Assembly: GCA_024137785.1 (NCBI GenBank)
Contig: JAHRHZ010000085.1
Coordinates: 13,723,272 to 13,787,271, forward strand
Source: Ginglymostoma cirratum
Taxonomy: Eukaryota
Length of the DNA: 64,000 bases
Direction: 5' to 3'
The translations under genes were made by a program, and so were the position numbers. This document shows positions 10,737 through 63,297 of this stretch, one piece after another. Every line of letters starts with the position of its first letter. Within the stretch, counting starts at the first letter, position 1. The notes beneath the pieces are model-generated. The model had not been told where the DNA came from and did not search any database. It worked only from the letters and a program-made list of their open reading frames with translations.

Positions 10737-11291
10737 GAGATAACAAAGTGTAGAGCTGGATGAACACAGCAGGCCANNNNNNNNNNNNNNNNNNNNNNNN
10801 NNNNNNNNNNNNNNNNNNNNNNNNNNNNNNNNNNNNNNNNNNNNNNNNNNNNNNNNNNNNNNNNNNNNNNNNNNNNNNNNNNNNNNNNNNNNNNNNNNNN
10901 NNNNNNNNNNNNNNNNNNNNNNNNNNNNNNNNNNNNNNNNNNNNNNNNNNNNNNNNNNNNNNNNNNNNNNNNNNNNNNNNNNNNNNNNNNNNNNNNNNNN
11001 NNNNNNNNNNNNNNNNNNNNNNNNNNNNNNNNNNNNNNNNNNNNNNNNNNNNNNNNNNNNNNNNNNNNNNNNNNNNNNNNNNNNNNNNNNNNNNNNNNNN
11101 NNNNNNNNNNNNNNNNNNNNNNNNNNNNNNNNNNNNNNNNNNNNNNNNNNNNNNNNNNNNNNNNNNNNNNNNNNNNTCTCCCGAAACATCAGCTTTCCTG
11201 CTCCTCTGATGCTGCTTGGCCTGCTGTGTTCAACTAGCTCTACACCTTGTTATCTCAGATCCTCCAGCATCAGCAGTTCCTATTATCTCTG
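10737..11291 (+). mobile_element. Penelope-like fold-back element, family A (centre lost in gap)
   Basis: Left arm gagataacaaagtgtagagctggatgaacacagcaggcca is the inverse of right-arm ...ggcctgctgtgttcaactagctctacaccttgttatctc. Direct repeat atgcaattgtacat at 10723-10736 and 11292-11305. Same family as 63015-63226. Confidence 0.8.
10777..11176. other. Assembly gap (400 N)
   Basis: Run of N located between the two arms of a fold-back element. Confidence 0.99.
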
Positions 11292-11401
11292 ATGCAATTG
11301 TACATGGATTTTGTTGTCTTCAGCTATGAATAGTAATGGCAGAAGCTCCAATTTCTTTCCATCACAGGTACTCTCTCTAGCTTCTACCATTTTGATACTC
11401 A

Positions 11402-13740: not shown

Positions 13741-14090
13741 GAGGTGGTAGTAGCATAGTGGTAATGTCACTGGACTAGTAACCCTGAACCCCAGACCCTT
13801 CCAAAGAAGGGTCTAGGCCTGAAATGTCAGCTTTCCTGCTGCTTGGCCTGCTGTGTTCATCCAGCTCTACACTTTGTTATCTCTAGTGATGACAATTGCT
13901 GATTATCATAAACCCAGTTTCAGGGAAGGAAATCTGCTGTCTTTACCTGCTCTAGTCTATATGTGGTATTGGATGCACAAAATGCAGTGGATTCTTAACT
14001 GTCCTCTGAAATTGTTCAGCGAGGCAATTAGGGATGGGCAATAAACTGTGGCCTTACTAGCAATGCCTAAACCCCACGAGTGAAGAAAAG
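13741..14090 (+). mobile_element. tRNA-derived SINE (family S)
   Basis: A-box-like tagcatagtggtaatgtcactggactagta, body tttcagggaaggaaatctgc, tail ggcaattagggatgggcaataaa. Confidence 0.78.
13793..13883 (+). mobile_element. Family A fold-back fragment nested in a SINE
   Basis: aagaagggtctaggcctgaaatgtcagctttcctgct...catccagctctacactttgttatctc matches 63106-63196. Confidence 0.75.
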
Positions 14091-23617: not shown

Positions 23618-24872
23618 ATACTTCTTTAGAAACAGGAGGTGGTCATTTGGCCCTTCGAACCTGCTCCGCCATTTATCATGATCATGGCCGATCATCCAAT
23701 TCAATAGCCTAATCCTGCTTTCTCCCCATAACCTTTGATCCCATTTGCGCCAAGTGTTATATCTAGCCGCCTCTTGAATACATTCAATGTTTTGGCATCA
23801 ACTATTTCCTGTGGTAATGAATTCCACAGGCTCACCACCCTTCTGGTGAAGAAATGTCTCCTCATCTCCGTCCTAAATAAGTCTATCCCGAAATCTCAGA
23901 TGGTGACCCTTGATTCTGGACTCACCCACCATCAGGAACATCCTCCACGCATCTATCCTGTCTAGACCTGTTAGAATTTTATACGTCTCTATGAGATCCC
24001 TTCTTAGTCATGTGAACTCCAATGAAAACAATTCCAACCTAGTCAATCTCTCCTCATACGTCAGCCCTGCCATCCCTGGAATCAGCCTGGTAAACCTTCA
24101 CTGTACTCCCTCGAGAGCAAGAGCATCCTTCCTCAGAAAAGGAGACCAAAACTGCACACAATATTCTAGGTGTGGCCTCACGAAGGGCCTGTATAACTGC
24201 AACAACATTTCTCTGCTCCTGTACTCAAAACCCCTCGTAATGAAGGCCAACATGCCATTTGCTTTCTTTACCGCCTGCTGCACCTGCATGCTTACCTTCA
24301 GCGACTGGTGCACAAGGACACCCAGGTCCCACTGCACACTCCCCTCTCCCAATTTACAGCCATTTTGGTAGCAATCTGCCTTCTTGTTTTTGGTTCCAAA
24401 GTGAATAATCTCATATTTATCCAAATTGCACTGCCATCTGCCACTGATCTGCCCACTCACCCAACCTGTCCAGATCATGCTCAAGGATCTCTGCATCCTC
24501 GTCACAATTTAACCTCCTATCCAACTTAGCATCATCTGAAAACTTTGAGATGTTACATTTTGCTCCTTCATCCAAATCACAAATATATATTGTAAATAGC
24601 TGGGGTCCCAGCACCGATCGCTGTGGCACCCCTCTAGTTACTGCCTGCCAATTTGAAAAGGACCCATTAATTCCTACCTTTTGTTTCCGCTCCGCCAACC
24701 AGTTTCCTATCCATCTAAATACACTTCCCCCATCCCATGTGCTTTATTCTTGCACAATAATCTCTTGTGGGACTTTGTCAAATGCTTTCTGAAAGTCCAA
24801 ATATACCACACCGACTGGCTCCCCCTTGTCTACTCGACTAGTAACATCTTCATAGAATTCCAACAGATTTGT
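23618..24872 (-). mobile_element. CR1-clade LINE, relatively young, frameshifted reverse-transcriptase region
   Basis: ORFs 24417-24698 (GVPQRSVLGPQLFTIYICDLD...SKFSDDAKL, the RT catalytic DD region) and 24098-24505 (VKKANGMLAFITRG...RPHLEYCVQFWSP). Confidence 0.93.
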
Positions 24873-25298: not shown

Positions 25299-25806
25299 TA
25301 AGACCATAAGACATAGGAGTGGAAGTAAGGCCATTCGGCCCATCGAGTCCACTCCGCCATTTAATAATGGCTGTTGGGCATTTCAACTCCACTTACCCGC
25401 ACTCTCCCCGTAGCCCTTGATTCCTTGAGAGATCAAGAATTTATCAATCTTTGCCTTGAAGACATTTAACGTCCCGGCCTCCACTGCGCTCCGTGGCAAT
25501 GAATTCCACAGGCCCACCACTCTCTGGCTGAAGAAATGTCTCCTCATTTCCATTCTAAATTGACCCCCTCTAATTCTAAGGCTGTGCCCACTGGTCCTAG
25601 TCTCCCCGCCTAACGGAAACAACTTCCCAGCGTCCACCCTTTCTGAGCCATGCATTATCTTGTAAGTTTCTATTAGATCTCCCCTCAACCTTCTAAACTC
25701 TAATGAATACAATCCCTGGATCCTCAGCCGTTCGTCGTATGTTAGGCCTACCATTCCAGGGATCATCTGTGTGAATCTCTGCTGGACACGCTCCAGTGCC
25801 AGTATG
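25299..25806 (-). mobile_element. CR1-clade LINE 3' end, young
   Basis: Open ORF2 C-terminus (ALERVQQRFTQMIPG...SLEFRRLRGDLIETYKIM...FFSQRVVGLWNSLP) and tail taagaccataagacatagg. Possible TSD gattaa at 25296-25301 and 25806-25811. Confidence 0.93.
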
Positions 25807-26557
25807 ATTAATATTACTGATGGTTGGCACACAGTCAACTAACTATTAGCAATTTCTCGTAAGTAAATGCAGCATGTTGACCAGATGGACTGGTTCACAA
25901 AATGATTAGGAACAGAATCTGGGCTAAATTCCTGTCCAGCAGAGACAGAAACTTAGCTTGTGCATTAACCGTGCAACTTAGTAAACCCAAATTTGTTAAA
26001 GTGAATGGATCACCAATATCTTAGTTCTCCATGAAACAAACATAACTTTGTTGAAATGTAACACATGCAAAACGTTTAGGTCAGCGTAAGCACTTCCACA
26101 GTTGATTCGTCAATTCGCTTTATTGATAGTCATTGTAAGAAGATGTGAGTTAGGGCAGGTAGAAAGTTGCATCATGTCCATTTCATTTTAAATTCTAAAC
26201 CTAACCAACCACAATGGGGTGGTTCAGCAGAAACAGTAAACATTCAAAAGAAACATGCCCAATCAATCTACACTCAAAATTTGTTTTGTTTTTGAGATTC
26301 CCCTAACACCACAGACTCTTTTATTGCAGGCTGTTTCTTTGAAAAGTAGATTCCAATACCCAAATGCTGTCTTGAACAAGAACTTCATAAATTTCAATAA
26401 TTCCCATTTACATGTGCCAACATCTACCATACACAACCCCAGTTTTACAGCTTAATGCTAATGTTGCCCTGGTTTGATCTGGTTCATTTATACAGATTTT
26501 CCTGCCACGGCAGGTTGCTTCATCCATACGTTGTTTTACGTATTTTTGACACCTTAC

Positions 26558-61983: not shown

Positions 61984-63014
61984 GTACCCCTCAAGGAGCA
62001 CGTTCAAGTTTAACTGAAGACTCAACAACAATATGTCTTCTGAAAGTCCATGGAGAACTTTGTTTTCACACAGTAGCTTGAAAGTAATTTCCAGCTTCCA
62101 CCAACTTCACCTTTCCTGGGAAACTGTGCTTGAAACAGAGTCTAGAAAGACATACCAGGGTGTTCCAATTACAAGGGTATGGACCTTAGTTAATCAAATC
62201 TTTTAAGACTGAAAGTTGGAAGGTTTGGCCAAGTAAGATCCTCAAGTGGAACGGAGTGAAGGTAAAAGCAAACACCTTTGAGGTGTAGACCAGTCAAATG
62301 GTCACTGAATGACAGAACAGGTTGAAGTGGTTAAATGGTTTTCTCCTATTCTTGTGGAATAAGGGGTGACTCTTTAACTTACAAGGTGCACTCTTCGCAC
62401 ATTATCATCCAGCATCCACACCGACCTGGATTCTGCCTCACCTCATCCCAGGAGGAAACCTCCAACAGCCATGCTTGTAAGTTAAAAAGATTTCAGAATA
62501 TCCTCACAACAACCACTATTCATCCACGCCCTCCACAAATTATAGCGATATCAGCAGTAAGTCTTCTTCCCTTAATCTTCACCTCCCTTTCTGAATCAAA
62601 TACCCTTCCATCTCCTTATTTGGAGATGTGAAACCACACAGAATGAAGAGCATTCACGAAGAAGCCATTCTGAGGGAGAACATAGCTCTTCTCATCACAA
62701 TTCTCGCTTGCGATTCATAAATTCTGAAGTTGTCTTCTCTAGCTCAATATCCACTGACAAGGTGTAAAGGCTTCGGGACAACTAGATCACAGCCCCAATT
62801 TTAAGGCCTCATGGGGCCACATGACAAGCAGTAACTGTAGAAGTCTCCCACTCAAGCCTGCTGAGCTGTGGTACATGGCTAGCAATAAAAGAGGTTGGGA
62901 GGGAAGATGCCATCAACAATAGCTCTGGACATTCATGTGATTAGAGGAGACTCTAAGGGCTCCCTGCCTCCACAATGACAATTTAAAAAGTTCAATAAAC
63001 CTCTTTGGACCTTT

Positions 63015-63226
63015 GAGATAACAAGGTGTAGAGCTGGATGAACATAGCAGGCCAATCAGCATCAGAGGAGCAGGAAAGCTGACGTTTCCGGTCGAGACCC
63101 ATCTGAAGAAGGGTCTAGGCCCGAAACGTCAGCTTTCCTGCTCCTCTGACGCTGCTTGGCCTGCTGTGTTCATCCAGCTCTACACCTTATTATTTCAGAT
63201 TCTCCAACATCTGCAGTTCCTACTAT
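63015..63226 (+). mobile_element. Complete Penelope-like fold-back element, family A, with intact hammerhead core and 14-bp TSD
   Basis: 86-bp arms (63015-63100 and 63111-63196) around a 10-nt loop. Core CTGAAGA-A-GGGTCTAGGCCC-GAAA-CGTC at 63103-63130. Direct repeat ctctttggaccttt at 63001-63014 and 63227-63240. Confidence 0.85.
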
Positions 63227-63297
63227 CTCTTTGGACCTTTACTGGCTCCAGGTTCTCTTGCTGCTAGGTTGGCCTGATGGGAATAGTAAGACTTATC

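What the first reader, a model, noticed from the sequence alone, without database searches (positions are those of the whole stretch)
63001..63240. Complete ~210-bp fold-back retroelement with a minimal hammerhead-ribozyme core and 14-bp TSD
Seen in the sequence: 86-bp inverted arms, a 30-bp unique tail and a perfect 14-bp flanking direct repeat. At the fold axis is CUGAAGA-A-[stem II GGGUC/GGCCC]-GAAA-CG-UC, which has the hammerhead core and a self-complementary ACGU stem III, with predicted cleavage after 63130. Established knowledge: Penelope-like elements carry minimal type I hammerheads in their pseudo-LTRs, which are thought to act as dimers, and they often show inverted termini. Inference: this is a non-coding, non-autonomous, retrozyme-like unit inserted by target-primed reverse transcription. 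Stem I is reduced to ~1 bp here, so this copy may not self-cleave.
Basis: partly seen in the sequence, partly recalled or inferred. Interest (0 to 1): 0.72.

Follow-up and report, generated by a model that had tools for sequence, protein, structure and literature searches.

The report
Folded-back stub of a Penelope retrotransposon
This 212-base hairpin is one of tens of thousands of short, head-to-head stubs of a longer Penelope-type jumping gene, likely made afresh at each insertion when both cut DNA strands prime a copy of the same RNA, so it is an ordinary kind of repeat whose many copies give clues to how these elements move.

Summary
The anatomy is confirmed: 86-bp arms, a tail, a 14-bp duplication and a minimal hammerhead core. 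It is not a separate retrozyme. Both arms are the terminal repeat (pLTR) of a 3.6-kb Penelope-like element with RT and GIY-YIG domains, five copies of which I found in this genome. Three tail motifs have 20,464 exact matches.
Across 345 arms, 3' ends fall at two sites about 35 nt apart, which defines the tail. 5' ends pile up at an initiator-like sequence just before the ribozyme. 70 of 76 typical fold-backs, long or short, have duplications, mostly 13-15 bp, against 15 of 65 solo copies. Fold axes differ copy by copy (54 distinct in 58).
Best reading: a staggered cut of about 14 nt lets each strand prime reverse transcription at one of the two sites. Priming near the mRNA's 5' end runs off after 95-135 nt and the two cDNAs join head to head. 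In this copy the ribozyme is predicted to be locked in the hairpin. A rough excess of solo 5' ends at the predicted cleavage site hints at cleavage in vivo, but is not established. Known kind; the mechanistic readout is the interesting part.

The parts
63001..63014 (+). Left target-site duplication (14 bp)
   Evidence: family mode 13-15 bp
63015..63100 (-). Inverted pLTR arm without tail: pLTR positions +95 back to +9 (C3 of the hammerhead = +1, numbered on copy L062). Its outer end is the inner of the two family 3' ends
63101..63102 (+). Fold axis / junction of the two arms, at the 5' boundary where most arms of the family stop
   Evidence: sequence; 5'-end histogram
63103..63130 (+). Minimal type I hammerhead core: CUGAAGA, extra A, 4-bp stem II (63111-63122) with CUAG loop, GAAA, palindromic ACGU; predicted cleavage after 63130; stem I 1 bp here
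   Evidence: features compared with PMC4209133
63131..63196 (+). Rest of the sense pLTR arm, paired with the inverted arm
   Evidence: 86-96% identical to pLTRs of full-length copies
63197..63230 (+). PLE 'tail' between the two family 3' ends; its last 4 nt are shared with the right duplication (microhomology)
63227..63240 (+). Right target-site duplication (14 bp)

Best explanation
It is a 5'-truncated, head-to-head inverted insertion of the terminal repeat (hammerhead plus tail) of an autonomous 3.6-kb Penelope-like retrotransposon, likely built anew at this site by two target-primed reverse transcription events on the element's own RNA. Shown: identity with the parent pLTR; two discrete 3' ends; a sharp 5' boundary at about -3; duplications of mostly 13-15 bp tied to the fold-back form; junctions that differ between copies; 2-5 nt microhomology at the tail end. 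Inferred: the RT-GIY-YIG protein, probably a dimer, cuts both strands about 14 nt apart. One strand primes at +129-139 by short annealing and the other at about +95. The mRNA starts at an initiator-like CCATTTC just 5' of the ribozyme, so priming in the 5' pLTR runs off after 95-135 nt. The two cDNA ends are trimmed and joined, giving a hairpin of about 200 bp. Priming in the 3' pLTR gives the long versions. The ribozyme belongs to the parent and is predicted to be inactive in this copy.
For: Parent: 5 of 7 extended loci are 3.7-3.9-kb elements, 85-91% alike, with pLTRs at both ends. Their ORF has DKG, YIDD, a CX4CXXC linker and VVY-CxxC-YIG; Pfam RVT_1 E 8.9e-6, GIY-YIG E 9.7e-4. 3' ends: of 345 arms, 110 end at +86-103, 214 at +126-145, 13 between and 8 outside. 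The same two ends appear as loose ends in contigs of public runs and in full-length copies. 5' ends: 223 of 284 lie at or after -6, with 12.25 per nt at -4..-1 against 0.2 per nt at -50..-7. Duplications: 70 of 76 +95/+130 fold-backs against 15 of 65 solos, p 6.5e-18; false-call rate 1%. Axes: 54 distinct in 58. In 15 of 32 pairs the tail-less arm reaches further 5' than the tail arm, so it was not copied back from it. The two arms of one insert agree in subfamily: N7 9 of 9, indel 21 of 23; rare variants are shared 9 of 93 within an insert against 48 of 2646 between inserts. Tail-end overlap with the target is >=3 nt in 25 of 54, against 5% in the null. PMC11167929 shows in vitro that a PLE protein nicks and extends both strands and starts RT at two internal sites that bound the tail.
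Against: The transcription start is inferred from DNA ends and a recalled Inr consensus; only contigs were available, and they cannot show RNA starts. One subfamily is over-represented among short arms (90 of 118 against 27 of 60 long arms), so short copies may partly come from their own sources or from another period. Both Pfam hits are below their gathering scores. None of the five long copies has an intact ORF. Axis variety could partly reflect deletions in palindromes after insertion. 15 of 65 solos also have duplications. PMC11167929 reports priming without homology in vitro, unlike the microhomology seen here, and my duplication finder allowed one mismatch, which can inflate overlaps. 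Most sampled copies were chosen by an exact tail motif, which biases towards young, tail-bearing copies.
Confidence: 0.75

Rival explanations
1. A dedicated non-coding, non-autonomous master (retrozyme- or SINE-like hairpin of about 210 nt) is copied whole by the PLE protein in trans.
For: Short fold-backs are the commonest single class, 58 of 164 insertions. One subfamily is enriched among short arms. pLTRs act in trans in rotifers (PMC3846280). A 2026 preprint derives retrozymes from pLTRs.
Against: 54 distinct axes in 58 copies; long fold-backs have the same ends and duplications; no arm-specific variants; +95 is also the end of solo and full-length copies; tandem forms are 4 of 164.
Confidence: 0.1
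2. One TPRT event followed by fold-back self-priming or use of an antisense template, as proposed in PMC3846280, makes the inverted arm.
For: The two arms share variants. Some junctions sit at palindrome centres, for example 9 ends at +15. PMC3846280 argues for this route.
Against: In 15 of 32 pairs the inverted arm reaches further 5' than the arm it would have copied. Its outer end is a fixed site that solo copies also use. Axes show gaps as often as overlaps.
Confidence: 0.12
3. A DNA-transposon MITE with long terminal inverted repeats, or a miRNA hairpin.
For: Long inverted arms; weak Rfam miRNA hits.
Against: Duplications are 9-18 bp and variable, the ends are asymmetric, and the sequence is the pLTR of an RT-GIY-YIG element. 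The miRNA hits are below gathering scores.
Confidence: 0.02

Closest known systems
Canonical EN+ Penelope-like elements, Neptune/Nematis type (Craig et al. 2021, PMC8557442; passages read)
   Same: RT plus C-terminal GIY-YIG, linker Zn-finger, pLTRs with hammerhead, adjacent inverted 5'-truncated copy, 30-40-bp tail at one end
   Different: Here the insert is reduced to the two pLTR arms alone. Clade not placed on a tree.
Poseidon element PAc of Anolis (Frangieh et al. 2024, PMC11167929; abstract, main text and part of the methods read)
   Same: Two RT start sites bounding the tail, activity on both strands, hammerhead shortly upstream
   Different: The PAc ORF starts in the ribozyme; here the long ORF starts at about +168. 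PAc primes without homology in vitro; here genomic junctions show 2-5 nt microhomology.
Minimal hammerheads of metazoan PLEs (Cervera and De la Pena 2014, PMC4209133; first two of four parts read)
   Same: No helix III loop, palindromic 15.2-16.2, extra base between A9 and G10.1, G10.1-C11.1 pair; copies on opposite strands close together already noted there
   Different: Helix II is 4 bp and helix I 1-3 bp, shorter than the 7-8 and 4-5 bp given for S. mansoni (a 2-bp helix I is reported for D. virilis).
Non-LTR retrozymes (PMC7229834, passages; bioRxiv 10.64898/2026.07.22.740005, first two of five parts and passages)
   Same: Short, non-coding, type I hammerhead, related to pLTRs
   Different: Retrozymes are head-to-tail tandem arrays with a ribozyme in each unit; this is head-to-head with one complete sense ribozyme.
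Adineta vaga Pen2a/Pen2 inserts (PMC3846280; passages)
   Same: Inverted pLTR, 31-bp tail, 9-10-bp TSD, Inr-like sequence in the pLTR
   Different: Few copies there, and explained by self-priming on an antisense template.

Membership tests
EN+ Penelope-like element (parent) | Single ORF with RT and C-terminal GIY-YIG | tested here: met
   Both domains lie in one 669-aa open stretch of L062; Pfam hits significant but below gathering scores; motifs
EN+ Penelope-like element (parent) | pLTRs from partial tandem structure, carrying a hammerhead | tested here: met
   pLTR at both ends of 5 copies, unit 3,633 bp
EN+ Penelope-like element (parent) | Inverted 5'-truncated copy and 30-40-bp tail | tested here: met
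   94 of 164 insertions are fold-backs; two 3' ends about 35 nt apart
EN+ Penelope-like element (parent) | DKG motif and CCHH cysteines between GIY and YIG | tested here: met
   DKG at 58, CxxC at 558 between VVY and YIG; choice of the two histidines is recalled
Neptune clade | CX2-5CxxC linker Zn-finger | tested here: met
   CX4CXXC at 518; this feature is shared with Nematis
Neptune clade | RT phylogeny places it with Neptune | not tested
   No reference PLE proteins were fetched
Minimal type I hammerhead | Core CUGANGA / GAAA / UH | tested here: met
   Core positions 95-100% conserved apart from CpG sites, and N7 is the free position: A 67, T 52, G 1 of 120
Minimal type I hammerhead | Stem II covariation | tested here: inconclusive
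   Only a one-sided change: U-G 96, U-A 21, other 3 of 120; loop more variable; no two-sided change
Minimal type I hammerhead | Self-cleavage (as dimer or protein-assisted) | not testable with these tools
   Stem II pair probability about 0 in this copy and <=0.004 in parent RNAs; indirect footprint only
Non-LTR retrozyme | Head-to-tail tandem units each with a hammerhead | tested here: not met
   Window copy is head-to-head; 4 tandem of 164 insertions
Non-LTR retrozyme | Circular RNA | not testable with these tools
   Only contigs were served
MITE (DNA transposon) | Symmetric TIRs at both ends and a fixed short TSD | tested here: not met
   Tail at one end only; TSD 9-18 bp in short fold-backs

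The most novel reading that the evidence does not exclude
The copies of this family form a genomic record of the Penelope transposition cycle: a 14-nt staggered cut with each strand priming at its own RT start site explains the inverted pLTR, the tail and the duplication together; priming at the mRNA's own 5' end mass-produces 200-bp hairpins with no non-autonomous master; and a second set of 5' ends at +29 to +33 records hammerhead cleavage of germline template RNA, which has not been seen in vivo in the papers I read.
Probability: 0.3. Interest if true: 0.65.

Novelty: new member of a known kind. Interest (0 to 1): 0.38.

Why it matters
The insert itself is one of very many. PMC8557442 calls the origin of PLE inverted repeats and tails undefined, and PMC11167929 found no reads at the hammerhead cleavage site. 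This family has enough copies to test both questions by counting junctions. It also warns annotators that abundant 200-bp hairpins with duplications can be PLE stubs rather than MITEs, SINEs, retrozymes or miRNA genes. In a small sample the family made up about 6% of readable bases.

Tried and rejected
Rfam gave no hammerhead hit. A Pfam accession recalled for a PLE domain was not in the library. No solved structure matched the ORF at E<=1. No earlier scan findings matched. Public runs were all contigs, RNA only guessed for X1-X3: they cover the element, but show no starts, strand or level. The strong loose end at +30 comes from the subfamily's one-base indel, not from cleavage, so I rejected it as evidence. 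The spike of 7 of 284 ends at +29/+30 is not counted as cleavage evidence: 5 are fold-back junctions at the AGCT palindrome, two of them from one insert, and 0 of 66 solos end there. Target-site self-homing was rejected as a family trait: 0 of 68 sites match the element over 12 nt or more. The long-versus-short difference at position 30 was a gap-placement artefact and was redone; the position-80 test parsed nothing. Folding two ribozyme units favoured a plain duplex (-31.6 kcal/mol) over the hammerhead dimer helices (-13.3); nearest-neighbour energies do not model the core, so this is no verdict. Paper searches found no description of this family or of two-strand priming for PLEs (listings only, plus passages of PMC6155905 and bioRxiv 10.1101/443036). 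Repbase, Dfam and subscription papers were not searchable, so it may already be catalogued. No supplements were read; those of PMC4209133 and the 2026 preprint may list this motif.

Full report
Observation. The arms (86 nt each, 8 mismatches), the perfect 14-bp flanking repeat, the very stable fold (z -19.4) and the hammerhead core at 63103-63130 are all present. Stem II is 4 bp with a CUAG loop. The first four bases of the right duplication are also the element's own next bases. Rfam has no matching hammerhead model.

Family. The 212-mer drew 2,683 candidates in the 4.36-Gb genome; 40 were scored, and the 39 others matched nearly full length at 88-93%. Three exact tail motifs occur 13,012, 1,734 and 5,718 times, with reversed controls at 0; these are lower bounds. 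In 39 fixed-coordinate 10-kb stretches, 20 of them readable, 24 clusters covered 6.5% of 199 kb. That suggests on the order of 10^5 copies, from a small sample.

Parent. One copy (L002) ran on past the tail. Searching with that extension and extending 7 loci gave five elements of 3.7-3.9 kb, 85-91% alike, with the same hammerhead-and-tail repeat at both ends and a unit of 3,633 bp. The ORF has RT and GIY-YIG hits below Pfam's cut-offs and the PLE motifs DKG, YIDD, a CX4CXXC linker and CxxC between VVY and YIG. By PMC8557442 (passages) this is a canonical EN+ PLE of Neptune/Nematis type. None of the five ORFs is intact. The window's sense arm matches these pLTRs at 86-96%. Nothing in the finding is other than pLTR, apart from the target duplication.

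How the stub forms. I mapped arms in 228 loci chosen by tail motif or by fixed coordinate, of which 19 were unreadable; positions count from C3 = +1. The 3' ends are bimodal: 110 of 345 at +86-103 and 214 at +126-145. This matches the two internal RT start sites that bound the tail in PAc (PMC11167929). The 5' ends show a cliff: 49 of 284 at -4..-1 against 9 over -50..-7, and 223 of 284 at or after -6. The sequence there, CCATTTC, fits the Inr consensus (recalled), and pLTR start sites are reported for other PLEs. Of 164 complete insertions, 94 are fold-backs, 65 solos, 4 tandems and 1 other. Duplications flank 53 of 58 short and 17 of 18 long +95/+130 fold-backs (13-15 bp in 37 of the 53), but only 15 of 65 solos (1% false calls). 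Axes are nearly all different (54 in 58). Either arm can be the one reaching further 5' (15 against 16, one tie, of 32). The two arms of one insert match in subfamily and share rare variants, and neither arm type has its own alleles. At the tail end the target overlaps the element by 3 nt or more in 25 of 54 cases, against 5% in the null (10 of 64 with a gap were set aside); at the other end overlaps are smaller and had no null. I infer a staggered cut of about 14 nt, priming on both strands at the two sites, run-off at the mRNA 5' end when the 5' pLTR is used, and end joining. These steps are inferred, not shown.

Against this reading. Short arms are enriched for one subfamily (90 of 118 against 27 of 60). 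Deletions inside palindromes could add axis variety. No RNA start could be observed. The sample favours tail-bearing young copies.

The ribozyme. Family variation falls where a hammerhead tolerates it: N7, a U-G to U-A change, and loop II (120 of 157 arms parsed). No two-sided covariation was seen. Its features fit the minimal dimer-type PLE hammerheads of PMC4209133, which cleave weakly in vitro; the PAc ribozyme needs protein and is dispensable for insertion in vitro. In the fold-back, stem II has a pair probability near 0 and stem I is 1 bp, so this copy is predicted to be inactive.

Cleavage footprint. I used genome-wide truncation patterns, classified 15-35 loci for each, and corrected roughly for chance and survival. 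Estimated solo 5' ends are about 110 at +22 (65-161), 85 at +26 (24-196), 800 at +29/30, 840 at +33 (382-1319) and 200 at +37 (84-356). This fits templates cut at the predicted site. It also fits RT stalling at a folded ribozyme, the corrections are approximate, and the local sample had 0 of 66 solos at +29/30 and 2 at +31-36. It is a hint only.

Novelty. Inverted pLTR, tail, duplication and pLTR hammerhead are all described for PLEs, and Penelope-like elements are reported as expanded in a shark genome. The host here was not determined. My searches found no account of this family or of two-strand priming for PLEs, but repeat databases were out of reach. Verdict: a new member of a known kind, not a retrozyme; interest 0.38, mostly for the testable mechanism.

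Noticed in passing
window 63235-63250: A 16-nt exact match to the parent's sequence about 130 bp upstream of the hammerhead spans the end of the right duplication (E 6e-4). No match of 12 nt or more was seen at 68 other target sites. Chance or an older relic; unexplained.
   Followed up: partly
window 13790-13883 and 11180-11302: Further family arms in the window, 78-91% identical to the finding.
   Followed up: partly
L098 761-1177 (G000:C85, about 490 bp past the window end): A longer fold-back of the same family in the opposite orientation, with a 13-bp duplication.
   Followed up: yes
family-wide, pLTR +5, +29/30, +45: Two subfamilies: CUGAUGA with AAG after the cleavage site (3-bp stem I; the AUG opens a 14-codon upstream ORF in L062) and CUGAAGA with AG (no AUG, 2-bp stem I). 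Both occur in long and short copies.
   Followed up: partly
window 25383-25838 (-), 23907-24371 (+): Open frames that look like C-terminal fragments of CR1-type LINE ORF2 (recalled likeness).
   Followed up: no
L062 (element orientation) about 2000-2500: The parent ORF carries a variable Ala/Thr/Asp/Pro-rich repeat between its N-terminal region and the RT.
   Followed up: no
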